From IMG/VR virus record IMGVR_UViG_3300031965_000065: 42,962 bases of DNA. One strand, written 5' to 3'. Positions 1 to 42,962 of the stretch are shown in pieces (the stretch's first letter is position 1; each line of letters opens with the position of its first letter). The position numbers and the translations under genes are program-made. Below the pieces are notes generated by a model. It was not told the origin of the DNA. It did no database searches and saw only the letters and a list, made by a program, of their open reading frames with translations. The DNA comes from a virus.

Positions 1-127
1 TTGACAGGAATATATAAAACAAACTAAACTGAACTAATGGAAAATACATGGAACACAATAATTGTTGCCGCAACTTCTTATGTACTAGGAGTAGCAACAG
101 GATATTACGGTTGCAGTCTTGTTAAGG
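1..127. repeat. 127-bp terminal direct repeat (second copy 42836..42962): circular or terminally redundant genome, probably an assembly overlap
   Basis: Bases 1-127 (ttgacaggaatatataaaac...cagtcttgttaagg) are identical to the last 127 bases of the window. Confidence 0.95.
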
Positions 128-3833: not shown

Positions 3834-4034
3834 CTACCTTGACTGATTAAACTTCCTATCAAACACCGCCCTTGCTTCTTTAACAGAAACACCAACACTT
3901 AACCGACTGTGTTTTAGCGATTCTTCCCATGCCTCATCAATTTTGTCCTGATACAACCTCATAAGATCGTTAATGAAGGGTTGTCGGGTCGGCATTGAAT
4001 ATTTAATTAGCAATTGTGATATTTTGTTTCTCAT
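3834..4034 (-). CDS. hypothetical protein (last gene of leftward operon)
   Basis: 66-aa ORF with a 4-nt overlap to the upstream RRM gene. Confidence 0.5.
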   Translation of the reverse strand: MRNKISQLLIKYSMPTRQPFINDLMRLYQDKIDEAWEESLKHSRLSVGVSVKEARAVFDRKFNQSR

Positions 4035-4318
4035 TGGTCTAATCGTGGGCGCGGTCTTTCCGGACGCGCTTTTTTAACAACAATGTTTCTTTTGTTAAAA
4101 TCAATTCCGTCAAACTTTTTAATTGCGGTTTCAACTTCTTCTTCAGTTTCAAACTCAACAAAACCAAAACCTCGTGACCTGCCTGTGTCCCTGTCTAGTA
4201 TGACAGCAGCGGAAACAACGTTACCGACTTCACTGAAAAATCCTTTCAAAGCCTCGTCGTTAATCGACCACTCAAGATTACCAACGTAAATTTTATTTTG
4301 GTTATTCATCATGTTCAC
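4031..4318 (-). CDS. RRM-type (RNP-1/RNP-2) RNA-binding protein
   Basis: RNP-2 IYVGNL and RNP-1 RGFGFVEF at canonical spacing. Basic tail ARPERPRPR. About 90 aa, like bacterial single-RRM proteins. Confidence 0.85.
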   Translation of the reverse strand: MNMMNNQNKIYVGNLEWSINDEALKGFFSEVGNVVSAAVILDRDTGRSRGFGFVEFETEEEVETAIKKFDGIDFNKRNIVVKKARPERPRPRLDQ

Positions 4319-4334
4319 AATGTTTCACCTCTTT

Positions 4335-4970
4335 TCATTTTTTACTATATCCAAAGTTGATAAAATCTTCAGAATAAAGCTCACCGACAATTTTCCGTGT
4401 TTCTGGTGTATAGAACCTGTTATATCCAGTAAACGGTGCAGATTTATTGCTTTTGTTCCGGTGGGGCAATTCAAATTTATAGTTAATCATTTCACAAACC
4501 CTTAACCAGTCCTCTTTCAAGTTTTCAAACCGACCAAGAAAATCAACTTCCAATTTGCCATTCCAAAAAAGATATTCACTCATTGTCCAAAGTTGTTGGC
4601 GTTTTGCTTGACCCTTGTTTGTGCTTAAGCGTCCCCCTTTTTCAATGATCTTGCGGTATTTAATCAAATCGTTTTTAACAAACTCATCAAAATTTTCCGG
4701 ATTTGCCCAACCCAAATTCAAAATACAGGAAGCAACCCTATCGTAGGGATCGCGAACAAATGAAAACCTGAAGGGAAGACTTTTGTGAAAATCTGTTGTG
4801 GGTGGACGATCGGGCGTTGCGTTTTTAAGAATAAAAGGCGCTACGCTCATTGAAGCACCGCCGGTTTTGGGAATATGAATAAATAAAGCACGCTTAGCAA
4901 AATCACTGAAGTCCGATATTGTAGAAACTTTTGATTCTTCTGATTCACCTATATAACTGTCCTTTGCCAT
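4335..4970 (-). CDS. sulfotransferase (Sulfotransfer_2-like), paralog B
   Basis: PAPS 5'-PSB loop FIHIPKTGGASM. 3'-PB motif FVRDPYDRVAS. C-terminal VDFLGRFENLKEDWLRVC...LPH...YTPETRKIVGELYSEDFINFGY. Confidence 0.8.
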   Translation of the reverse strand: MAKDSYIGESEESKVSTISDFSDFAKRALFIHIPKTGGASMSVAPFILKNATPDRPPTTDFHKSLPFRFSFVRDPYDRVASCILNLGWANPENFDEFVKNDLIKYRKIIEKGGRLSTNKGQAKRQQLWTMSEYLFWNGKLEVDFLGRFENLKEDWLRVCEMINYKFELPHRNKSNKSAPFTGYNRFYTPETRKIVGELYSEDFINFGYSKK

Positions 4971-4973
4971 AAT

Positions 4974-5594
4974 TTATCTTTGATAACCAAACAACTCAAA
5001 ATCTCTTGCATAAAACTCACTAACAATTTTCTTTGTTTCCGGTATGTAAAAATCCATATAGTCTGTACCATACATTCTACCCCTAACTTGGTGGGGTAAG
5101 TCAAACTTAACCCCAACATGATCGCAAACCTTTCGCCAGTCTTCCTGTAAATTTTCATACCTGCCCACAAAATCCAACGCCGGCGTTTGACCAATACAAA
5201 CAAAATCTGTCATGGGTCTAAGCGGAACAAAATCTCTCAACCGGTCTTTGTGGTTATAAACAAATTCCGTAAACCTATCTTTGATTGGCTTAATTGAAAC
5301 TCGATCCAAGTTCTCATCACCTAATTGCCGCAACAATTCAAACGGCAGGGCTTCGCGAATCGTGTGTCCCAACATTCCTGAAACAAATCGTTCATACGGA
5401 TTTCTTACAAAGGCAAACTTCCAAAGATCGTCCAAAGATAAATCCTGAATTGAAATTAAATACTTTGCAAAATATTCCATTTCCGCGTGTTTATGTCCAT
5501 GACTTTGCAAAAACGGCGCTTGTTCCATTGAACTACCGGCGGTCTTCGGGATATGTATAAAAAGTATTTTATGTTTTGTGTTTATTAAACTCAT
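4974..5594 (-). CDS. sulfotransferase (Sulfotransfer_2-like), paralog A
   Basis: FIHIPKTAGSSM, FVRNPYERFVS, LDFVGRYENLQEDWRKVC...LPH...YIPETKKIVSEFYARDFELFGY. Only 3 nt separate it from paralog B. Confidence 0.8.
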   Translation of the reverse strand: MSLINTKHKILFIHIPKTAGSSMEQAPFLQSHGHKHAEMEYFAKYLISIQDLSLDDLWKFAFVRNPYERFVSGMLGHTIREALPFELLRQLGDENLDRVSIKPIKDRFTEFVYNHKDRLRDFVPLRPMTDFVCIGQTPALDFVGRYENLQEDWRKVCDHVGVKFDLPHQVRGRMYGTDYMDFYIPETKKIVSEFYARDFELFGYQR

Positions 5595-5806
5595 TTTGTT
5601 AGCGCTTCTGCAAACGCTTTAAGTGCTGCGTGAACGGCTTTGCCTATTTGTTTTTGATTGAAATTTCCCTTACCCTCAAACTGAGTAACGTCCCCGAAGG
5701 CGTGTTCTTTCTCCATGTCAGTAAAACTGACCACAACATAATCAGATTTGTAAGCAGACCTGATTAAAAACTGTCGTAGTGTTTCTTCGTGTTTTTTAAC
5801 TTTCAT
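5591..5806 (-). CDS. hypothetical protein
   Basis: 71-aa ORF with 4-nt overlaps to both neighbours. Confidence 0.55.
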
Positions 5807-6120
5807 AAATATTTTGTATTAGTAAACTTGCTTGTATCACCGCCGGCGTCTATATATTCCTGAACTCTTTTGTGAACCTTATTATGTTCTTCAACTGTCA
5901 TTAGTTCCAAGTTTTCAATATCGTTGTTCCCACGATCGCCGTCAATATGGTGAATGATCTCGTCCGATTTCAAATGTCTTCCCAAGTGTTCTTCCATTAC
6001 CAGCCGGTGTTTCAAAACGTATTGATGTTTGGGTTTGAAATGCGCCACCGCAGGGTGATCTGGCGCTTTCACCTTCACATATCCGGTTGATTTGTCTGTA
6101 TATTCACCTTTTACCTTCAT
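5803..6120 (-). CDS. HNH endonuclease
   Basis: [12 protein letters not shown]...[29 protein letters not shown] (H-N-H with the HH.DG..NN..NL pattern). Confidence 0.85.
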
Positions 6121-6346
6121 AAATTCCTTCGCCTATTTTTTCTATTCTTAAAACCTTTTTCCGCGATTGCCATAATAATCCTAAAAACAAGTAAAACAAC
6201 AAGCGCGCAAATCGCAAAAGTTTGATCTTCCATTTGTGTATAAGTCTTCTCATTTTACGTTTTCGTCGGCGTGATTTATACGTTCCCCTTTTTTTATATG
6301 GGTTGTTAGGATCACCACCGAACCCTGTCCAATCAGCTTTCCACAT
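6104..6346 (-). CDS. hypothetical basic protein with one hydrophobic helix
   Basis: 80-aa ORF with an RRRKRKMRR stretch followed by [11 protein letters not shown]. Overlaps the HNH gene by 17 nt. Confidence 0.4.
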
Positions 6347-6372
6347 ATTAATTTCCTTTCTTAACCATAGGG

Positions 6373-6792
6373 TTATAATAAATGTCTAAGGATACCCTGG
6401 GCTTTAAGATAACTAACTGATTTTTCTAATAAGTTAGAGCTATCTCCAAAAAAACCTAAACCCTTATTACAAGATGAACATAACAACCCTCTGATTTTTC
6501 CTGTTTTGTGGTCGTGGTCAACTATCAATGTTTCTTTTTTCATACAAATGGCACATAAATAGTTTTGCTGTTTACAAAGGTTGTCATATTCTTGCAAAGT
6601 GAGTTTATATTCTCTTCTAAGTAATCCCTTCCTGTTAGCCAAAGTTTCAGCCTCTCGGTTAATTGCCCTATACTTGCGTTTATATTCGTTAATCTTTTCT
6701 CTATTTTTGATACGATAGGCTCGTTTCCATTCCTTAATTTTCTCCTTATTACGATAATAGTATTTTGATTGACTTGGGTATTTAGTTTCCAC
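6373..6792 (-). CDS. recombination endonuclease VII family protein
   Basis: CAICMKK..LIVDHDHKTGKIRGLLCSSCNKGLGFF is the Endonuclease_7 zinc/HNH-like signature. The gene looks AT-rich by eye. Confidence 0.85.
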   Translation of the reverse strand: METKYPSQSKYYYRNKEKIKEWKRAYRIKNREKINEYKRKYRAINREAETLANRKGLLRREYKLTLQEYDNLCKQQNYLCAICMKKETLIVDHDHKTGKIRGLLCSSCNKGLGFFGDSSNLLEKSVSYLKAQGILRHLL

Positions 6793-6818
6793 ATATCTAT
6801 TATATCATAATTCCTTAT

Positions 6819-7550
6819 TTAGCCCTGGGAGGAATTAGACGCTCCTTTCGGTTTGTTGGCTTGATAAAATGCAGCTGCAAATCCTGCCGGTGTAATACTT
6901 CTTCGTGCTTGTTTATCCAACTTACCAAACTGCTCTGGGTGAATATCTTTTGAACGCATATAATCAAATTTAGGTAGTGTCTGTGAATTGGTCTTGTGTT
7001 TTTCAATCTGTTCTTTGGTTAAGACATCATCCATATTTGTGATAGTTTTTATCGGCTCATTGAAGTATCCCCATAATGCTGTTCGTTTCTTGTAAGCATC
7101 ACCAAATTCCCAAGGGTCAAAAACAAATTTTGGATTACCTAAAAACCACTTCAATCTTCCATACCAAGGATTTTCTAATGCCCAAAACTTTAACGGTGAA
7201 TACTTTTGTTGGTCTGACTTTGTAGCGTATTGACACATATAAACTACAGCCAAACAACCCAACACTGTTTTCATACCCTCTCTTAAATCTCTCGGTGTTT
7301 TGGCGTTTGTCCTGGCATCTGAAAACATAGTGCAGGGCGGAGCTGCAAGTATCCCGTAAACTTCATCTATATTTACATCCATGTGGGTTTTTCTATTAGG
7401 GTTGTAAAAAACCAATTCGTTATTAAGTCTGCCGGTTAAAGTGACATCCCATTGTGGTAGGGTAATTACCCTCACATCAAAGCCGGCATCTTTCCAGGGC
7501 TTACTCCAAGCTCCTGTTCCACCGCATAAGTCTAAGATTATATTTTGCAT
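6819..7550 (-). CDS. short DNA (cytosine-5)-methyltransferase-like protein
   Basis: Motif I ILDLCGGTGAWS, motif IV AAPPCTMFS, motif VI WALENP, KKRTALWG, and C-terminal RRSITPAGFAAAF. Only 243 aa, so it has a very small or absent target-recognition domain. Confidence 0.7.
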   Translation of the reverse strand: MQNIILDLCGGTGAWSKPWKDAGFDVRVITLPQWDVTLTGRLNNELVFYNPNRKTHMDVNIDEVYGILAAPPCTMFSDARTNAKTPRDLREGMKTVLGCLAVVYMCQYATKSDQQKYSPLKFWALENPWYGRLKWFLGNPKFVFDPWEFGDAYKKRTALWGYFNEPIKTITNMDDVLTKEQIEKHKTNSQTLPKFDYMRSKDIHPEQFGKLDKQARRSITPAGFAAAFYQANKPKGASNSSQG

Positions 7551-7552
7551 AG

Positions 7553-8101
7553 TTAAAATAATTTCTCCTGTGTAAAATCACCAATCTTTTGTTCCTTGTT
7601 GCCATAAACATTGAATTGAAATACATCTTTGCCTTGTTGTTCCATAATGTAGCGTTTGACTGCGTCTTGTGAGACATGACCTGCCGAACCAATGTAGTAA
7701 CCTCTTGCCCAAAGAAACGGAAGCTCTTTGTAGTGAAATTTGTATCCCAAATAAAGTAAATATGAAAATGCTTGTCTTGCTCTCCTTGAAGTGTTGCCTT
7801 TTAATTTTCTAACAATCTCGTAAGGTGTGTGGGTTGGCAATGCTGAAACAAAGAGGTGAATATGGTCAGGCATTACCTCAAGTGCCAACATCTCTAGTCC
7901 TTGCTCAATACATTGCTCTTCAATAATCTGCTTCAAGAACGGAACTAACTTGCCAATTAAAATCTTCTTCCTGTATTTTGGTATCCAAATAATGTGGTAA
8001 TTCAGGTTGTGTTTGGAATGGCTACTGCTTTTGACACCAGAAATCTTGACCTGTATATCGTAGGTCTTTGGGTTGAAATGTGGGTATTCGTTTTTTGCCA
8101 T
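7553..8101 (-). CDS. tnpA: IS200/IS605-family Y1 (HUH) transposase TnpA
   Basis: YHIIWIPKYRKKIL, HUH motif MPDHIHLFV, WARGYYIGSAG and the Tyr helix VKRYIMEQ. Confidence 0.88.
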   Translation of the reverse strand: MAKNEYPHFNPKTYDIQVKISGVKSSSHSKHNLNYHIIWIPKYRKKILIGKLVPFLKQIIEEQCIEQGLEMLALEVMPDHIHLFVSALPTHTPYEIVRKLKGNTSRRARQAFSYLLYLGYKFHYKELPFLWARGYYIGSAGHVSQDAVKRYIMEQQGKDVFQFNVYGNKEQKIGDFTQEKLF

Positions 8102-10833: not shown

Positions 10834-11517
10834 TTATGACTTTGCTTTTGCTTTTGCAGCAGCAAGTTCTTTTTCCAACTGTTCAACCGTTTTGGCTTCG
10901 CCGGAATCTTCCGGTTCTGCTTCCTTTTCAGGCGCTTTTTCCTCACGTTCAGCCTCTAAACTTTCTGCGAAATCGTCAACCTCTTTAGTTGATTTCTTTG
11001 CCGGCGCAGTTGCCGGAGTAGAAGTTTTTGTTACTTCTTTGTCGGCTTCTTTCGGCTCATATTCAACCGGCTCAAGTTTTTTGACTGTTTTGTTGAATGA
11101 AACAATATTGTTAAAGATTCTTTTGTCTTTTCCTTCGTTTTGTTCAACCATTACGTCAACTTGTTCGCCAATTATAGATTCCGCGTCAAAACTTTCAGCT
11201 TCTTCTTTGGTGAGGGTTCGACCAACAGCAGCGTTTGCAAGTTTCCCAAGCCAACTTCGATCGTTCAATGCCAAACGACACCTTTTCCACAAATACCTTC
11301 CTCGTGTCGTTTCTGCTTCGTCGCTTCCTTCACTCGTGGGCATTTCTTTGTCGTCTAAGATGATAAACATATAGTTTAAGACACCTTCCTCGACACCTTT
11401 CCACTTGTTGAATTGAGATACTAAATTAACATCTGCGATCTGGACTGTGTAGCGATCCATGGGTACCGGATCAAAGTCCCCACCTGTTTTTATATCTGGT
11501 TTTTGACCTTGTAGCAT
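10834..11517 (-). CDS. DUF669-like putative ssDNA-binding protein with acidic/Lys-Ala C-terminal tail
   Basis: The N-terminus GGDFDPVPMDRYTVQIADVNL resembles the F.P.P.G.Y...I start of DUF669 phage proteins. Low-complexity acidic tail. Sits in the recombination/replication module. Confidence 0.5.
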   Translation of the reverse strand: MLQGQKPDIKTGGDFDPVPMDRYTVQIADVNLVSQFNKWKGVEEGVLNYMFIILDDKEMPTSEGSDEAETTRGRYLWKRCRLALNDRSWLGKLANAAVGRTLTKEEAESFDAESIIGEQVDVMVEQNEGKDKRIFNNIVSFNKTVKKLEPVEYEPKEADKEVTKTSTPATAPAKKSTKEVDDFAESLEAEREEKAPEKEAEPEDSGEAKTVEQLEKELAAAKAKAKS

Positions 11518-12397: not shown

Positions 12398-12631
12398 TTA
12401 GATTTCTTTTTCATTTTGTGAACTAACTCTTTTATTAAGAATTTTCAAAACGTCTTCCTCTTTGAATATCCACCTGCGCCCGACTTTATAAGCCCTTATT
12501 TTTCCCTCATCAACCCACCTTCGCACAGTGTATTGGTCGATCTTAAAAAGACTTGCGACTTCTTCTGTTGAATATGTTGTTGGCTTTTTAGCCTCGTCGT
12601 TATTCATTATTGACAATATACTACACGTCAT
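12398..12631 (-). CDS. excisionase/MerR-family helix-turn-helix DNA-binding protein (probable start at 12607)
   Basis: YSTEEVASLFKIDQYTVRRWVDEGKIRAYKVGRRWIFKEEDV is the HTH_17 pattern. The internal start MNNDEAKK fits the predicted promoter. Confidence 0.8.
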   Translation of the reverse strand: MTCSILSIMNNDEAKKPTTYSTEEVASLFKIDQYTVRRWVDEGKIRAYKVGRRWIFKEEDVLKILNKRVSSQNEKEI

Positions 12632-12644
12632 TATATGATGTCAA
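12610..12644. promoter_or_regulatory. fully overlapping divergent sigma70-type promoter pair
   Basis: Plus strand: TTGACA 12610-12615, 18 nt, TATGAT 12634-12639, then ATG at 12649. Minus strand: TTGACA 12644-12639, 18 nt, TATATT 12620-12615, then ATG at 12607. Neither gene has an SD. Confidence 0.55.
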
Positions 12645-16496: not shown

Positions 16497-17429
16497 ATGA
16501 CTAAAGCGAACAACGCGTCAAATGATACCCCCCGTACCCCCCATATGCCGCCAAAAGCTACTCCGGAGAGTAGAAAGTCAGGTGGGGACTTTAATGAAAA
16601 GAGGGCGAGGGACAAATCTAAAAATAAACCCTCAGAACGTGCAGATATTGGCAAACATGCAGACATTGGCAAACGTGCAGATATTGGCAAACGTGCAAAC
16701 GCAGACAAATCTAAAAAATTCTCCAAAAAACAACGCCGACAGCACTTACAACTCGCCAAGCGTGGACTGAAGGCTAGAAAAAAATACGCAGAAGAAAAAA
16801 AGGAGATTGAAAAAAAACTCAAATCCAAAAAACCCGAACGTGCATACACCGCAAAGGACGACCCCAATCGCCGCCTCGACGGAACGTTCAACAAAGGAAA
16901 CAATGCCAACCCCAACGGGCGCACCCCCAACCGTGAACTACCCCCCCCACGCCAAATTGTTTTGATTAAAAAATTAAAAGACGTAATTCAAAAAATAGAA
17001 AATGGCGAAAAAAACACTGCGATCAATATGAAAGAATTAATGCTTGAATCAGGGTATAGCGAAACTTATGCCGGACACCCAAGCAACCTTGTTGAAACCA
17101 ATACTTTTCAGAAGTTGTTGAATAAACACTTGCCCGACGACACTGTTACTAGGGTTCACGGCGACGCCATTGTTGCTGAAAAAATAGATCATTACGTTTT
17201 TCCGGCAGGTGAAAAGGATTCTGTTATTCGTGATGTTATTGAAAGCGTTGCCGGCTGCCGTGTGGTGAAGATCAGGAAAAAACTTCAGTGGAAGCGTGCT
17301 TATTTTACTGCGCCGGATACTTCAAACAGGCTCAAAGCCATTCAGGAAGCATACAAGGTCAAAGGTCGCTACCCTGCGGAAAAACACGAACATTTTGTTG
17401 CTAAGGTAGAAATTACTAAATATGTCTGA
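16497..17429 (+). CDS. terS: terminase small subunit (start at ATG 16497, not GTG 16434)
   Basis: Lies immediately upstream of, and overlaps, terL. Basic, repeat-containing N-terminus. The MKELMLESGYSETYAGHPSNLVETNTFQKLL segment resembles the AGYS helix-turn-helix of small terminases. Confidence 0.65.
   Translation: MTKANNASNDTPRTPHMPPKATPESRKSGGDFNEKRARDKSKNKPSERADIGKHADIGKRADIGKRANADKSKKFSKKQRRQHLQLAKRGLKARKKYAEEKKEIEKKLKSKKPERAYTAKDDPNRRLDGTFNKGNNANPNGRTPNRELPPPRQIVLIKKLKDVIQKIENGEKNTAINMKELMLESGYSETYAGHPSNLVETNTFQKLLNKHLPDDTVTRVHGDAIVAEKIDHYVFPAGEKDSVIRDVIESVAGCRVVKIRKKLQWKRAYFTAPDTSNRLKAIQEAYKVKGRYPAEKHEHFVAKVEITKYV
16641..16694 (+). repeat. 3 x 18-bp in-frame tandem repeat (ADIGKH/ADIGKR/ADIGKR) in terS
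   Basis: gcagatattggcaaacat / gcagacattggcaaacgt / gcagatattggcaaacgt. Confidence 0.9.
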
Positions 17430-18777
17430 TAATGATACTCCTGATATTGATGAAGGGATAACGTTGTCTTTACCGTATAAGTTTACGCCTCGCGAATATC
17501 AACTTCCGGTATTGAAAGCGCTGGACGGCGGCACTAACCGTGCGGTCTGCGTGTGGCACAGGCGGTCGGGAAAGGATAAGACAATGATTAACTTTGTGGC
17601 GAAGAAAATGTATGAGAGGGTGGGTGCTTATTATTATTTGTTTCCCACGTTCAAGCAGGGAAGAAAAGTTATTTGGGACGGGCGCGATCGTGACGGATTT
17701 AAGTTCACGGATCATATACCTACGGAGTTAAGAGCAGCTACCAGTAATGAGGAGATGAAGATTGAAACTAAAAACGGGTCGATCTTTCAGATAATAGGGA
17801 CTGATGATATTGACAGGATCAGAGGAACAAATCCTTTTGGTATGGTCTTTAGCGAGTGGAGTTTGCAAAACCCTGCGGCGTGGGATATTACACGTCCTAT
17901 TTTGGCAGAAAACGGGGGGTGGGCGGTTTTTATTTACACCCCTATGGGGAAAAATCACGGATACACAACGCTGCAAACGGCGAGGGCTTTTCCTGATGTT
18001 TGGTATTCAGAGGTTTTGACGGCGAAGGACACGAACGTTATACCCTCAGACGTTCTTGAGCAGGAAAGATTGGAGATAATAAGAAAGGACGGCAACGACG
18101 CGGTGTATTTGCAGGAGTATATGTGTGATTTTGATATTCCTATTAAAGGTTCTTATTTTGCGGATCAGCTAAGGCGCGCAGAACAGGAAGGCAGGATTGG
18201 TGGTATTCCACACGATATGGCGGCAGAGGTTCACACCTTTTGGGATTTGGGGGTGGACGATTCTATGAGTATTTGGTTCATGCAAAGAGTGGGAAGGGAA
18301 TTTCGCTTTATTGATTATTATGAAAACTCCGGCGAGGGCATACCCCATTATATAAATGTATTAAAGTCAGAACACCGAAAGGACTATCTATATGGAAGGC
18401 ATTTTGCGCCCCACGACATTGAGGCAAGGGAACTAACCACCGGACGTTCACGCCGCGAAACTGCTAAAAACTTGGGGATTGATTTTGAGGTTGTGCAAAA
18501 AGTGCAGCATAAAGAAGACGCAATTGAGGCTTCAAGGAACATAATGAGCCAGTGCTGGTGGGATCAAAGAACGTGCGAACGCGGACTGGACGGATTAAAG
18601 TCTTTCCATAAGGAGTGGGACGAAGAACGTCAAGTCTTCAAACCCACACCGGTTCATGATTGGGCAAGTCACGCTGCCGACGCTTTTCAGACTTTTGCTT
18701 TGGGGTGGTTTGAGAAAATGCAGGGGGCGGCGACAGTGGAAACGCCCATACAATTTGATCCTTTTGAAAATGCCTAA
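17422..18777 (+). CDS. terL: terminase large subunit
   Basis: 451 aa. N-terminal ATPase (AVCVWHRRSGKDKT Walker-A-like; a Walker-B-like segment). C-terminal RNaseH-like nuclease with FWDLGVDDS...APHD. Confidence 0.85.
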   Translation: MSDNDTPDIDEGITLSLPYKFTPREYQLPVLKALDGGTNRAVCVWHRRSGKDKTMINFVAKKMYERVGAYYYLFPTFKQGRKVIWDGRDRDGFKFTDHIPTELRAATSNEEMKIETKNGSIFQIIGTDDIDRIRGTNPFGMVFSEWSLQNPAAWDITRPILAENGGWAVFIYTPMGKNHGYTTLQTARAFPDVWYSEVLTAKDTNVIPSDVLEQERLEIIRKDGNDAVYLQEYMCDFDIPIKGSYFADQLRRAEQEGRIGGIPHDMAAEVHTFWDLGVDDSMSIWFMQRVGREFRFIDYYENSGEGIPHYINVLKSEHRKDYLYGRHFAPHDIEARELTTGRSRRETAKNLGIDFEVVQKVQHKEDAIEASRNIMSQCWWDQRTCERGLDGLKSFHKEWDEERQVFKPTPVHDWASHAADAFQTFALGWFEKMQGAATVETPIQFDPFENA

Positions 18778-22368: not shown

Positions 22369-24354
22369 ATGGCAAAACCAATATCTGAATCAATTAAAGA
22401 AACAGGCGCTTCGGCGGTGTCAAAAGACCCATATGAAGATTTAGCCAAACAGTGTGAGGCTGAATATGAAATTGCGTGGAAACATCAAAAACCCAAAAAA
22501 GACGAACAGGAAGTCCGCCTCAAACTTTACAACAATCAACGCCGTGATAAAAAAGCGGTCGGGGATACCACAATGTTTACGATCCACCAAACGATTGTTG
22601 CTTCACTATATATAGACCGGCTTGATTCCGAGTGGGAAGGTAAAGAAGAAGGTGACGAGGGCGTTGCTGAAAATCTTAATGTTTTGTCCAAGAATGATTA
22701 TGACGATATGGAAAAAGACATCTTGGACTATTTCTGGATTTGGGACGCTTCGTTTTTTGGTAGGGGTCTGGTTTCTTTGGAAGAATATATCCGTGAGCCG
22801 GATAAAAATATTTACTTGCCCATGCCATATAATATTGACCCCATTCCGTTTGTTCGCGATCCTTATGCAACTTCAATAAATGGCGATCGTCGAGGGCGCG
22901 GCGGTGCAAGGTTTTTTGGGTGGGAACAAAAAATGACCAAACAGGACACAGAAGAACACCCTCATATTTTTGAAGAAATAACTTGGTCTGAAATAAACAG
23001 ACTTGGTGGAAGTAAGTCGCTTTTACAGGACGCAATTGACGCAAGAACCCTTGCACAAGGTTTACAGTCAATCAACAAAGATGAGGGTCAGGCAAATCTT
23101 GGGGCGAACAAACAATACGACATTACCAAATGGTACACCCGATATGAAATGAACGGTGAGGTTAAGAGGGTTAAGGTTTGGTTGGCAAACGATAGAAGCA
23201 AGGTCATTGGACTTGAGGTTTTGGATCGGGACTACTGGAAGGTAGTTGACAGACCGCTTTATCCACACAGCCACGATTGGGACGGAACTTCAATTCCCGA
23301 TCTTACTGAAGATAAACAGCGAGCAAGGGCGGTTGCTCAAAACTTGGGACTTAACGCCATGAAGGCTGATCTTTACCCAATGTATATCTATGACACCAAC
23401 AAGATCACTAACAAAAAAGACCTCAATTTTGCTTTCAATAAATTCATAGGTGTTGACGCTAAAAATGAAAATATTGCCGGCGCAATAGCACCACTTATCA
23501 AAGCTCGTCCGAACATGGGGCTTTTGGATTTTATATATAATTCTTTGGACGCTTCTGCACAAAAAGCAACGGCTACTCCGGAAATTCAGCAGGGCGCTTT
23601 GTCTGAGGAAAAGCGAACTTTGGGTGAGATAAACATAATTGCTTCCAAAGTTGATACGCGTTATTCATTGTCTGCAAAAGTATTTGGGTGGTCTGAAAAA
23701 AGGTTTTGGCGACAATGGTACTGGTCTTATAAAGAAAACTTTAAGGAAGACATTGATGAAAAAATACTTCGTATTTCCGGCGCATTTGGTGCAAGGTGGC
23801 GAGGTCTTAAAAAAGACGATATTGTTGCAAAGATTGATCCGGACGTTAGGATTGAAAGTCGGATTCTGTCAAGGGCAAAACAGCTTGAGGAAAGACAAAC
23901 GCTTACCGGACTTTTTGCACTTGTTCTTCAAGACCCAACAGCCAACAGGCGCTGGGGTCTTAAAAAACTTTCAAAGGTTCATGGTATGACAAAAGATGAA
24001 ATTGATAGGCTTTTGCCGCCAACGGTTGACGAAAGAATAGCTGAACGCGAAAACGAAAAACTTTCCAAAAACGACCCTGTTCCTGTTCTTCGTGAAGACA
24101 ATCACCAGTTGCATTTGGAAATAAATAACATGGCTTTGGACACGGAAGCAAAAGCAGCGCACATTGAAACGCACGTTAGGGCGCTTGAACTTAAAAAGAC
24201 CAATCCGGAACTGTTCCCACAAGACCCTGAAGTTCAACAAGGCTTTCAACCCAGTGCTGGACAGCCACAAATTTCTGTTCCGTCCGGAGTTTCCGGCGCA
24301 CAACAGGGTGGAATTAGCCCTGCACAACCAACAAGTTCACCGCCAACACAATAA
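22369..24354 (+). CDS. portal protein
   Basis: 661 aa. Located downstream of terL and upstream of the scaffold-like and capsid genes. Call rests on size and synteny. Confidence 0.7.
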   Translation: MAKPISESIKETGASAVSKDPYEDLAKQCEAEYEIAWKHQKPKKDEQEVRLKLYNNQRRDKKAVGDTTMFTIHQTIVASLYIDRLDSEWEGKEEGDEGVAENLNVLSKNDYDDMEKDILDYFWIWDASFFGRGLVSLEEYIREPDKNIYLPMPYNIDPIPFVRDPYATSINGDRRGRGGARFFGWEQKMTKQDTEEHPHIFEEITWSEINRLGGSKSLLQDAIDARTLAQGLQSINKDEGQANLGANKQYDITKWYTRYEMNGEVKRVKVWLANDRSKVIGLEVLDRDYWKVVDRPLYPHSHDWDGTSIPDLTEDKQRARAVAQNLGLNAMKADLYPMYIYDTNKITNKKDLNFAFNKFIGVDAKNENIAGAIAPLIKARPNMGLLDFIYNSLDASAQKATATPEIQQGALSEEKRTLGEINIIASKVDTRYSLSAKVFGWSEKRFWRQWYWSYKENFKEDIDEKILRISGAFGARWRGLKKDDIVAKIDPDVRIESRILSRAKQLEERQTLTGLFALVLQDPTANRRWGLKKLSKVHGMTKDEIDRLLPPTVDERIAERENEKLSKNDPVPVLREDNHQLHLEINNMALDTEAKAAHIETHVRALELKKTNPELFPQDPEVQQGFQPSAGQPQISVPSGVSGAQQGGISPAQPTSSPPTQ

Positions 24355-26560: not shown

Positions 26561-27556
26561 ATGGCAGGAACAAACAACGTTAGATCAGCAACACAAACCG
26601 GCACAGCGTCTGCCGGAAACATACCGCGAGAGGTAAACAACTTCTATGACAGGGCATTACTTGAAAGAGCAGTGCCGGCTTTTGTTCATAATAGGTTTGC
26701 ACAAGTTAGGGACTTACCAAGAAACGCAGGAACAAACACTGTTAAATTCCGAAGATATGGTTCGCTAACCGCAACCACGACCGCACTCACTGAGGGGGTT
26801 ACTCCTTCCGGCTCACAGCTTACAATCACTGATTTGGTTGCGAGTGTTTTACAGTACGGTGATTATGTAACTATCACCGATATTGTGGACATGGAAACTT
26901 ACGATCCAATTTTGACTGAAACTGCTGAAGTTCTTGGTGAGCAAGCAGGAGATTCGCTAGACCAACTTTGTAGAACAGTTTTGATTGCAGGGGCTTCCGC
27001 ACAGTACGCAAGTACAGCAACCACAGTCAACACTGTATCCGCAGCCATGAAACTTGATCGAGCAGAGGTAAAAGAAGCAGTAAGAACTCTTAAGGGAAAC
27101 AACGCAAAACCTGTAACCTCAATGATTAATCCTTCTACTGGTTATAACACCACACCTATTAATAGAGCATTTATCGGTATTGTTCACCCTAACAGCACTT
27201 ATGATTTGGACGACGCAACCGGCTGGATTCCTGTTGAAAAATATCCTAATCAATCTGATGTTATGCCAAACGAGGTTGGATCACTTGCCGGAGTTAGATT
27301 TGTTGAATCTACTAATGCTCATTCAGAGTCCGGTTCACTTACTACGGTTTATGGAACTTTAATTTTTGGTCAGAACGCTTATGCTCAAACAAGAATTTCC
27401 GGTGAAGCACTAATGAATATTGTTAAACCTTTGGGGAGTGCTGGAACAGCCGATCCTTTGAATCAAAGGACAACTTCGGGTTGGAAAGCAACTTATGTTG
27501 CCAAAGTATTGAACGCAAATTACATAATAGTTGTATATCACGGGGTATCAAGCTAA
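26561..27556 (+). CDS. major capsid protein (HK97-fold type)
   Basis: 331 aa. NFYDRALLERAVPAFVHNRFAQVRDLPRNAGTNTVKFRRYGSL...ALTEGVTP...VLQYGDYVTITD matches the conserved N-terminal pattern of podoviral HK97-fold capsid proteins. Confidence 0.8.
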   Translation: MAGTNNVRSATQTGTASAGNIPREVNNFYDRALLERAVPAFVHNRFAQVRDLPRNAGTNTVKFRRYGSLTATTTALTEGVTPSGSQLTITDLVASVLQYGDYVTITDIVDMETYDPILTETAEVLGEQAGDSLDQLCRTVLIAGASAQYASTATTVNTVSAAMKLDRAEVKEAVRTLKGNNAKPVTSMINPSTGYNTTPINRAFIGIVHPNSTYDLDDATGWIPVEKYPNQSDVMPNEVGSLAGVRFVESTNAHSESGSLTTVYGTLIFGQNAYAQTRISGEALMNIVKPLGSAGTADPLNQRTTSGWKATYVAKVLNANYIIVVYHGVSS

Positions 27557-42835: not shown

Positions 42836-42962
42836 TTGACAGGAATATATAAAACAAACTAAACTGAACTAATGGAAAATACATGGAACACAATAATTGT
42901 TGCCGCAACTTCTTATGTACTAGGAGTAGCAACAGGATATTACGGTTGCAGTCTTGTTAAGG
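42836..42962. repeat. second copy of the 127-bp terminal repeat
   Basis: Identical to 1..127. Contains the 5' part of the gene at 37..315 (ATG at 42872). Confidence 0.95.

What the first reader, a model, noticed from the sequence alone, without database searches (positions are those of the whole stretch)
4031..4318. Eukaryote/bacterial-type RRM RNA-binding protein in a phage early operon
The 95-aa ORF has textbook RNP-2 (IYVGNL) and RNP-1 (RGFGFVEF) motifs and an Arg/Pro tail. Single-RRM proteins occur in some bacterial lineages but are unusual cargo for a phage. The gene is translationally linked to the sulfotransferase pair upstream and to a 66-aa ORF downstream. It could remodel host or phage RNA stability or translation. 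That is relevant because at least three phage transcripts here are predicted to be leaderless.
Basis: partly seen in the sequence, partly recalled or inferred. Interest (0 to 1): 0.6.

Follow-up and report, generated by a model that had tools for sequence, protein, structure and literature searches.

The report
Phage-encoded single-RRM RNA-binding protein
A complete 43-kb uncultured phage carries a genuine, selectively maintained gene for a small RNA-recognition-motif protein, a type almost absent from known phages; it belongs to a phage-only branch of the family and its target RNA is still unknown.

Summary
The ORF at 4031-4318 (minus strand, 95 aa) matches Pfam RRM_1 at 79.6 bits (cut-off 20.7). 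RNP2 (IYVGNL) and RNP1 (RGFGFVEF) are intact, and the AlphaFold model has the b1-a1-b2-b3-a2-b4 fold.

The window is a complete phage genome with a 127-bp terminal repeat. The gene is the second-to-last cistron of the roughly 9-kb leftward early operon. It sits 16 nt behind two sulfotransferase genes, and its stop overlaps (ATGA) the start of a 66-aa ORF that relatives lack.

RRM genes are rare in phages:
- 1 weak hit in 50,697 phage records
- no PHROG family
- only eukaryotic viruses among viral fold matches

This one is not a recent host capture. About 22 metagenomic proteins (60-83% identical) form a clade with no cellular member. They lie on related phage contigs, always at the end of the early module. 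Synonymous sites are saturated (omega 0.06-0.13). The best cellular match is 58% identical. The gene is accessory: 1 of 10 near-complete relatives has it.

It is most likely a small ssRNA-binding chaperone or regulator. The target, the expression and the host are untested.

One unexpected lead: viral RRM genes are recurrently flanked by glycan-modifying enzymes.

The scan had not flagged a stand-alone phage RRM before.

The parts
4031..4318 (-). RRM protein gene (95 aa, GTG start; stop at 4031-4033)
   Evidence: ORF. Pfam RRM_1 79.6 bits. NF058537 98.9 bits. AF2 pLDDT 83.9 with RRM topology. Foldseek TM 0.83, rmsd 0.8 A to HuR RRM1.
4274..4291 (-). RNP2 hexamer IYVGNL (residues 10-15)
   Evidence: Translation. 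N14 is invariant, and Y11 and L15 are at least 90% conserved in the phage clade.
4151..4174 (-). RNP1 octamer RGFGFVEF (residues 49-56)
   Evidence: Translation. R49 to E55 are invariant in 22 phage-clade sequences and in 29 sequences that include cellular ones.
4034..4069 (-). Short basic Arg/Pro tail ARPERPRPRLDQ (residues 84-95); no Gly-rich RGG extension
   Evidence: Alignment A1. The tail has low pLDDT, block means 76 and 63. Cellular relatives have either no tail or RGG/Gly-rich tails.
4326..4332 (-). Shine-Dalgarno AGAGGTG, 7 nt before the GTG, inside the 16-nt spacer after the sulfotransferase stop
   Evidence: Read directly from the sequence.
3834..4034 (-). 66-aa ORF whose ATG overlaps the RRM stop (ATGA); last gene of the leftward operon; not conserved
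   Evidence: No Pfam, PHROG or NCBIfam hit. No homologue next to the RRM in relatives or in any fetched locus.
4335..5594 (-). Two tandem Sulfotransfer_2 genes (4335-4970, 4974-5594) directly upstream in the same operon
   Evidence: Pfam PF03567 and PHROG 3347. Sulfotransferases also lie 1-3 genes upstream of the RRM in L001/L002 and L251.
12615..12644 (-). Predicted sigma-70-type promoter (TTGACA-18-TATATT) heading the leftward operon that ends with the RRM gene
   Evidence: Consensus scan, 11 of 12 matches. A prediction only.

Best explanation
The gene encodes a stand-alone, bacterial-type RNA-recognition-motif protein that the phage makes from the far end of its early (replication, recombination and accessory) operon.

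The proposed mechanism is inferred from the family. The four-stranded sheet exposes Y11 (RNP2) and F51/F53 (RNP1). These stack on 2-4 bases of single-stranded RNA, and the short Arg/Pro tail adds charge. As a small, abundant ssRNA binder it would act as an RNA chaperone or post-transcriptional regulator of phage and/or host transcripts around the early-to-late switch.

It is an accessory gene, not a core gene. It has been kept for a long time within one lineage of about 35-45-kb SU10-portal-type phages.

Shown here: family membership, fold, an intact RNA-binding face, purifying selection, a phage-only clade, and a conserved position in the genome.

Inferred: RNA (not DNA) as the ligand, timing of expression, and any effect on translation or RNA stability.
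For: Identity and fold:
- RRM_1 at 79.6 bits; NF058537 'RNA-binding regulator' at 98.9 bits.
- 49% identity to the solved P. gingivalis RNA-binding protein 7jly and 44% to chloroplast cS22.
- Confident RRM fold. All RNP aromatic residues are invariant or nearly so.

Selection and phylogeny:
- Synonymous sites are saturated while dN is 0.15-0.29; omega is 0.06-0.13 where it can be computed.
- A 22-member clade without cellular sequences has SH-aLRT 89.

Phage context and position:
- The members lie on phage contigs that share TerL (63-77% identical) and portal (56-63% identical) with the window.
- The RRM is always the last or near-last early gene, just before terS/terL.

Family precedent:
- Bacterial single-RRM proteins bind ssRNA and act as global regulators or chaperones (B. 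thetaiotaomicron RbpB: bioRxiv 10.1101/2021.04.27.441718; PMC11697453 and PMC13370968).
Against: - There is no expression or binding data.
- The host is unknown, so no target can be named.
- No conserved RNA element was found next to the gene or in Rfam.
- RRMs can also bind ssDNA (PDB 2ki2 is named an ssDNA-binding protein; 6jvy is a complex with ssDNA). The gene shares an operon with DNA-metabolism genes, and no SSB was recognised there.
- The clade support is moderate (not starred), from only 89 alignment columns.
Confidence: 0.6

Rival explanations
1. Host-mimic takeover factor. The host uses Rbp-type RRM proteins as global RNA regulators. The phage copy competes with or replaces them, redirecting host sRNA/mRNA networks such as stress or polysaccharide regulons. 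This is a special case of RNA binding in which the targets are host transcripts.
For: - It scores 98.9 bits on the bacterial Rbp_regulator model, 1.1 bits under the cut-off.
- It is 50-58% identical to cellular Rbp proteins of many phyla.
- Bacteroides RbpB controls polysaccharide loci (PMC11697453).
- Viral RRM genes sit beside glycan-modifying genes.
Against: - The host is unknown, so it is not known whether it has an Rbp at all.
- Consensus sigma-70 promoters and strong SD sites argue, from general knowledge, against a Bacteroidota host.
- No specific host lineage is sister to the phage clade.
Confidence: 0.18
2. Single-stranded DNA-binding accessory protein. It would act in recombination, replication or the hand-over to packaging, not on RNA.
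For: - It shares an operon with an exonuclease, a helicase, an endonuclease VII and a replication-initiator-like gene.
- No OB-fold SSB was recognised in that operon.
- In relatives the gene lies directly upstream of terS/terL.
- Some RRMs bind ssDNA (2ki2; 6jvy).
Against: - 9 of 10 near-complete relatives lack any RRM, so it cannot be the lineage's essential SSB.
- The best profile and structure matches are RNA-binding proteins.
Confidence: 0.1
3. Counter-defence RNA sponge. The protein would sequester an RNA component of a host defence, such as a retron ncRNA, a crRNA or an antitoxin RNA.
For: - It is a patchy accessory gene in a low-GC variable region, next to homing endonucleases, a methylase and an IS200. 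Such regions often hold counter-defence genes (general knowledge).
Against: - There is no similarity to any known anti-defence or defence protein (PADLOC none).
- Very strong conservation of a generic RNP surface is unlike fast-evolving anti-defence genes.
Confidence: 0.07
4. A recently captured host gene with no role for the phage (a neutral passenger).
For: Accessory and patchy distribution.
Against: - A phage-only clade with saturated dS and omega of about 0.1.
- A conserved position across at least 9 independent phage contigs.
- No cellular sequence above 58% identity in 185,579 species genomes.
Confidence: 0.03

Closest known systems
Bacterial single-RRM 'Rbp' regulators (NCBIfam NF058537; B. 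thetaiotaomicron RbpA/B/C; P. gingivalis RBP, PDB 7jly; cyanobacterial Rbp proteins)
   Same: A single domain of about 80-100 aa, identical RNP1/RNP2 logic, and 49% identity to 7jly. It covers 78 of 79 positions of NF058537 at 98.9 bits. Family members bind ssRNA and act globally.
   Different: It is encoded by a phage and falls in a clade with no cellular member. It scores 1.1 bits under the NF058537 cut-off. It has a short Arg/Pro tail in place of no tail or a Gly/Arg-rich tail. Its neighbours are phage accessory genes, not housekeeping genes.
RRM proteins of eukaryotic large DNA viruses (pithovirus, mimivirids, marseillevirus; baculovirus BJDP)
   Same: They are virus-encoded RRM folds, and they are the only viral structural matches (TM 0.7-0.8).
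   Different: They are multi-domain or longer proteins of eukaryote-infecting viruses, 14-31% identical, and presumably taken from eukaryotic hosts. The present protein is of the bacterial type and lies in a tailed phage.
Microcystis phage MaAM05 hypothetical protein (MW495066.1, 176687-177340)
   Same: It is the only record among 50,697 deposited phage genomes with a detectable RRM match.
   Different: It is 35% identical (E=1e-3), lies within a longer 217-aa ORF of a 274-kb jumbo cyanophage, is unannotated and is unrelated to the window's phage.
Phage-encoded RNA chaperones or regulators of other folds (cold-shock-domain, Hfq-like and ProQ/FinO-like proteins; T4 RegA). Named from general knowledge, not tested here.
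   Same: The presumed job is the same: a small phage-made protein that binds RNA and alters translation or RNA stability.
   Different: The fold is different. None of these is an RRM_1.

Membership tests
RRM_1 (Pfam PF00076) RNA recognition motif | Profile match above the curated gathering score over the whole domain | tested here: met
   79.6 bits against a cut-off of 20.7; profile positions 1-69 of 70.
RRM_1 (Pfam PF00076) RNA recognition motif | RNP2 hexamer (I/V/L)-(F/Y)-(I/V/L)-x-N-L and RNP1 octamer (K/R)-G-(F/Y)-(G/A)-(F/Y)-(I/V/L)-x-(F/Y) | tested here: met
   IYVGNL (residues 10-15) and RGFGFVEF (residues 49-56). The consensus definitions come from general knowledge of the family.
RRM_1 (Pfam PF00076) RNA recognition motif | b1-a1-b2-b3-a2-b4 sandwich fold | tested here: met
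   AF2 elements E9-13, H21-28, E34-41, E48-56, H59-69 and E80-83, with pLDDT 83.9. Foldseek gives TM 0.83 and rmsd 0.8 A to HuR RRM1.
RRM_1 (Pfam PF00076) RNA recognition motif | Binds single-stranded RNA | not testable with these tools
   Needs EMSA or CLIP.
Bacterial Rbp regulators (NCBIfam NF058537, equivalog_domain) | Score at or above the curated cut-off of 100 bits | tested here: inconclusive
   98.9 bits, E=1.5e-28, positions 1-78 of 79. This is just under the cut-off.
Bacterial Rbp regulators (NCBIfam NF058537, equivalog_domain) | Chromosomal gene of a bacterium that acts on cellular transcripts | tested here: not met
   The gene is encoded on a complete phage genome. Its clade holds no cellular sequence.
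Recent host-derived moron (horizontal capture) | Near-identical cellular homologue, or nesting inside a cellular clade | tested here: not met
   The best of the cellular loci returned from 185,579 species genomes is 58% identical. The phage clade is separate in the tree.
Core gene of this phage lineage | Present in most complete relatives | tested here: not met
   0 of 80 TerL-related loci have it in flanks of up to 10 kb. 1 of 10 near-complete related records has an RRM.

The most novel reading that the evidence does not exclude
The RRM protein is the regulatory half of a recurrent viral accessory cassette of the form 'glycan-modifying enzymes + RRM'. In the window's sub-clade it travels with sulfotransferases. 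In the nearest other viral RRM lineages it sits among GT2/GT1 glycosyltransferases, sugar epimerases and methyltransferases. Under this reading it controls, after transcription, either these enzymes or the host's surface-polysaccharide regulon, much as Bacteroides RbpB controls polysaccharide loci. That would be a phage-borne RNA regulator of cell-surface remodelling.
Probability: 0.12. Interest if true: 0.7.

Novelty: new member of a known kind. Interest (0 to 1): 0.48.

Why it matters
Canonical RRM proteins are the main RNA binders of eukaryotes. In bacteria they have only recently been recognised as global regulators (Bacteroides RbpB, cyanobacterial Rbp). In phages they are essentially undescribed:
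- none in PHROGs
- one weak hit in about 50,000 phage genomes
- no paper found in the searched library

A phage-only RRM clade under strong purifying selection means that some phages have long relied on this fold. It gives a compact 95-aa candidate for studying phage control of RNA. The recurrent neighbourhood with sulfo- and glycosyl-transferases suggests a testable functional link.

The practical limits are that the host is unknown and nothing is known about the target RNA.

Tried and rejected
- Close phage relatives by DNA: none in the phage collection. The portal protein has no tblastn match in cultured phages. The major head protein is only about 35% identical to Bacillus podophages.
- Host identification:
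  - no tRNAs
  - the IS200 transposase search gave only unnamed metagenomic hits
  - the cluster look-up gave no names
  - a literature look-up of sample accessions showed only that one relative (SDBU01) comes from deep-sea sediment metagenomes
- Conserved RNA target: Rfam found nothing in the window. Intergenic regions beside the RRM in relatives share nothing with the window. No terminator-like or unusually stable structure follows the operon (z = -0.24).
- Conserved protein partner: the ATGA-coupled 66-aa ORF has no homologue in any fetched locus, so no complex prediction was run.
- Defence or anti-defence labels: PADLOC gave nothing meaningful.
It returned only relatives at or below 56% identity and was not used.
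- The single-protein TerL scan found only 5 loci, so it was repeated with an alignment.

Full report
**1. Observation**

The ORF lies on the minus strand at 4031-4318. It is 95 aa from a GTG start. An AGAGGTG ribosome-binding site at 4326-4332 sits 7 nt upstream. The orthologue on locus L001 begins with ATG at the same codon and has the same MNMMNN start. This supports the 95-aa reading over the 92-aa public gene call.

The protein carries IYVGNL (RNP2, residues 10-15), RGFGFVEF (RNP1, residues 49-56) and the tail ARPERPRPRLDQ.
- Pfam RRM_1 matches at E=1.6e-22 and 79.6 bits, against a cut-off of 20.7, over 69 of 70 profile positions.
- NCBIfam's bacterial 'Rbp_regulator' model NF058537 gives 98.9 bits, just under its 100-bit cut-off.
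- An AlphaFold2 model (pLDDT 83.9) has the b1-a1-b2-b3-a2-b4 order.
- The model superposes on HuR RRM1 at TM 0.83 and rmsd 0.8 A.
- The most sequence-similar solved chains are the P. gingivalis RNA-binding protein 7jly (49%) and chloroplast ribosomal protein cS22 (44%).

**2. Genomic setting**

The window starts and ends with the same 127 bases, so it is a complete genome of 42,835 unique bp. GC is about 41% and there are no tRNAs.

It encodes a large terminase (17422-18777), an SU10-type portal (22369-24354) and a major head protein (26561-27556). It has no DNA relative among 50,697 deposited phages. The head protein is about 35% identical to those of Bacillus podophages.

Two back-to-back consensus promoters at about 12,610-12,644 divide the genome.
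- The rightward unit carries primase, packaging, virion and lysis genes.
- The leftward unit carries, in order: an Xis/HTH-like regulator, a replication-initiator-like protein, an exonuclease, a helicase, an IS200 transposase, a DNA methylase, endonuclease VII, an HNH endonuclease, two sulfotransferases, the RRM gene and a 66-aa ORF.

The RRM gene is therefore the second-to-last cistron of the presumed early operon. It lies in its lower-GC (37-38%) accessory part.

The sulfotransferase stop and the RRM start are 16 nt apart. The RRM stop overlaps the next ATG as ATGA. That the operon is 'early' is an inference from gene content and promoter position. It has not been shown.

**3. How unusual it is in a phage**

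- tblastn of the protein against the 50,697-record phage collection finds one place: an unannotated ORF of the 274-kb Microcystis phage MaAM05, at 35% identity and E=1e-3.
- None of 38,880 PHROG families matches.
- Structural matches among predicted viral proteins are all from eukaryotic giant viruses and baculoviruses.
- A pattern scan of 2.9 million IMG/VR contigs confirms 144 with an RRM relative. All are at or below 58% identical.
- Full-text searches found papers on bacterial RRM regulators but none on a phage-encoded RRM.

**4. Relatives and evolution**

The large protein search returns a tight group, P0002-P0023. These are about 90 aa long and 64-83% identical. After them the score drops to cellular proteins at about 50-58% identity.

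In a tree of 156 RRM proteins, the window and 21 of these form a clade with no cellular member (SH-aLRT 89). P0022 falls outside it. The nearest outsiders are again viral contigs, and no phylum is identifiable as donor. The alignment has only 89 columns, so deep branches are unresolved.

Among the loci returned from one genome for each of 185,579 species, the best match is 58% identical. The best matches are spread over Planctomycetota, Patescibacteria, Ignavibacteriota/Bacteroidota, Acidobacteriota and others.

The clade members lie on phage contigs:
- Gene tables show RecT, YopX, HNH, terminase and an SU10 portal.
- IMG/VR loci L006, L009, L016-L018 and L028 share TerL (63-70% identical), portal (56-63%) or tail proteins with the window.
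- In all of them the RRM gene is the last or near-last gene before terS/terL. In the window the early operon is inverted relative to the late operon, but the gene keeps its end-of-early position.

Between five orthologues dN is 0.15-0.29 while dS is saturated. Where it can be computed, omega is 0.06-0.13. This is strong purifying selection.

The gene is nevertheless accessory:
- None of 80 further TerL-related loci (46-65% identical) has an RRM within 10 kb.
- Only 1 of 10 near-complete related records has one anywhere.

**5. Mechanism**

All residues that define the RNA-binding face are invariant or nearly so in the phage clade: Y11, N14, L15, R49, G50, F51, G52, F53, V54, E55 and F56.

The best-supported reading is a small ssRNA-binding protein that acts as a chaperone or post-transcriptional regulator. 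It would be made as the last product of the early operon, around the switch to late expression. Family precedent is B. thetaiotaomicron RbpB, which binds ssRNA probes with some specificity and whose loss reshapes the transcriptome (PMC11697453 and PMC13370968).

No target can be named:
- no Rfam family in the window
- no conserved non-coding element beside the gene
- no conserved protein partner

The rivals are host-Rbp mimicry, ssDNA binding, an anti-defence sponge and a neutral passenger.
- The ssDNA role cannot be excluded from sequence, because no SSB was recognised. It is unlikely to be essential, because most relatives lack the gene.
- The passenger idea is contradicted by the selection and synteny data.

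**6. An unexpected neighbourhood**

Seven other viral RRM contigs were examined: L003, L004, L005, L007, L008, L021 and L024. They are fragments of larger viruses, with CheckV completeness of 10-55%. In all seven the gene is embedded among GT2/GT1 glycosyltransferases, a sugar epimerase/dehydratase and methyltransferases.

Tallies of neighbouring genes:

| Measure | Viral RRM loci | Cellular or background loci |
|---|---|---|
| Nearest-neighbour ORFs: top Pfam families | Glycos_transf_2 in 8 of 129, GT1 in 3 of 129 | No GT family in the 25 listed, of 149 |
| Loci with a GT2 within 3 kb of the RRM (home-made GT2 profile) | 11 of 73 | 1 of 80 genome loci; 0 of 80 metagenome loci |
| GT2 hits per kb scanned | 24 per 761 kb | 3 per 845 kb in RRM-less phages of the same TerL lineage |

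Fisher's exact test for 11/73 against 1/80 gives p=0.0016.

In the window's own sub-clade the neighbours are sulfotransferases instead (window, L001/L002, L251).

Caveats: the GT2 profile was seeded from viral sequences, the loci are not phylogenetically independent, and accessory regions collect such genes anyway. I report this as a lead, not a result.

**7. Comparison and novelty**

As a protein it is a new, phage-borne member of the known bacterial-type single-RRM family. No new fold or chemistry is implied. What is new is the setting: a phage-resident clade that is conserved in position and sequence. Neither the searched literature nor the phage family libraries describe it.

Earlier notes of this scan covered the neighbouring sulfotransferases and the promoter switch on this same genome.

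**8. Verdict**

The corrections are that this is not a recent host capture, that there is no conserved 66-aa partner, and that the function remains untested. Interest is moderate.

Noticed in passing
window 1-127 and 42836-42962: An exact 127-bp direct terminal repeat. The window is a complete (circularly assembled or DTR) phage genome of 42,835 unique bp.
   Followed up: yes
L003, L004, L005, L007, L008, L021, L024 (IMG/VR), around the RRM match: Viral RRM genes are embedded in clusters of GT2/GT1 glycosyltransferases, a sugar epimerase/dehydratase, methyltransferases and, in L004, an RtcB RNA ligase. GT2 lies within 3 kb of the RRM in 11 of 73 viral loci against 1 of 80 cellular loci.
   Followed up: partly
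L125 (Deltaproteobacteria MAG contig WGCQ01000018.1): This is the only 'cellular' locus with a GT2 next to its RRM, and the only named cellular sequence inside the mostly viral RRM group in the tree. It may be a prophage or a misbinned viral contig.
   Followed up: no
L006:1504-1900; proteins P0022 and P0025: Some related phage RRM proteins carry an extra C-terminal extension of about 35 aa, ending ...F(T/I)(I/V)(S/T)RD. It is absent from the window's protein.
   Followed up: no
L006:2465-3127 and 4100-4729: The large terminase of this relative matches in two pieces separated by about 1 kb. This suggests an intein, an intron or a homing-endonuclease insertion.
   Followed up: no
window 7553-8101 (-): An intact IS200-type Y1 transposase sits inside the early operon. 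A 97%-identical copy lies on a 38-kb metagenomic contig, and dozens of copies 60-90% identical lie on short contigs. None is named, so it gave no clue to the host.
   Followed up: partly
window 10834-11517 (-): This 227-aa protein has no Pfam or PHROG hit. It weakly matches NCBIfam NF046043 'phage replication initiation protein, NGO0469 family' (41 bits, cut-off 75).
   Followed up: no
L001:11120-11190, L251:2530-2590, L252:2068-2095 (upstream of terS): A short DNA segment of 27-60 nt, 77-93% identical, is conserved just upstream of the small-terminase gene in three RRM-bearing relatives. It was not found in the window. It may be a late promoter or a pac-related site.
   Followed up: no
window 4001-8000: The accessory part of the leftward operon (sulfotransferases, HNH, endonuclease VII, methylase, IS200) has lower GC (0.37-0.38) than the rest of the genome (0.40-0.47).
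   Followed up: no
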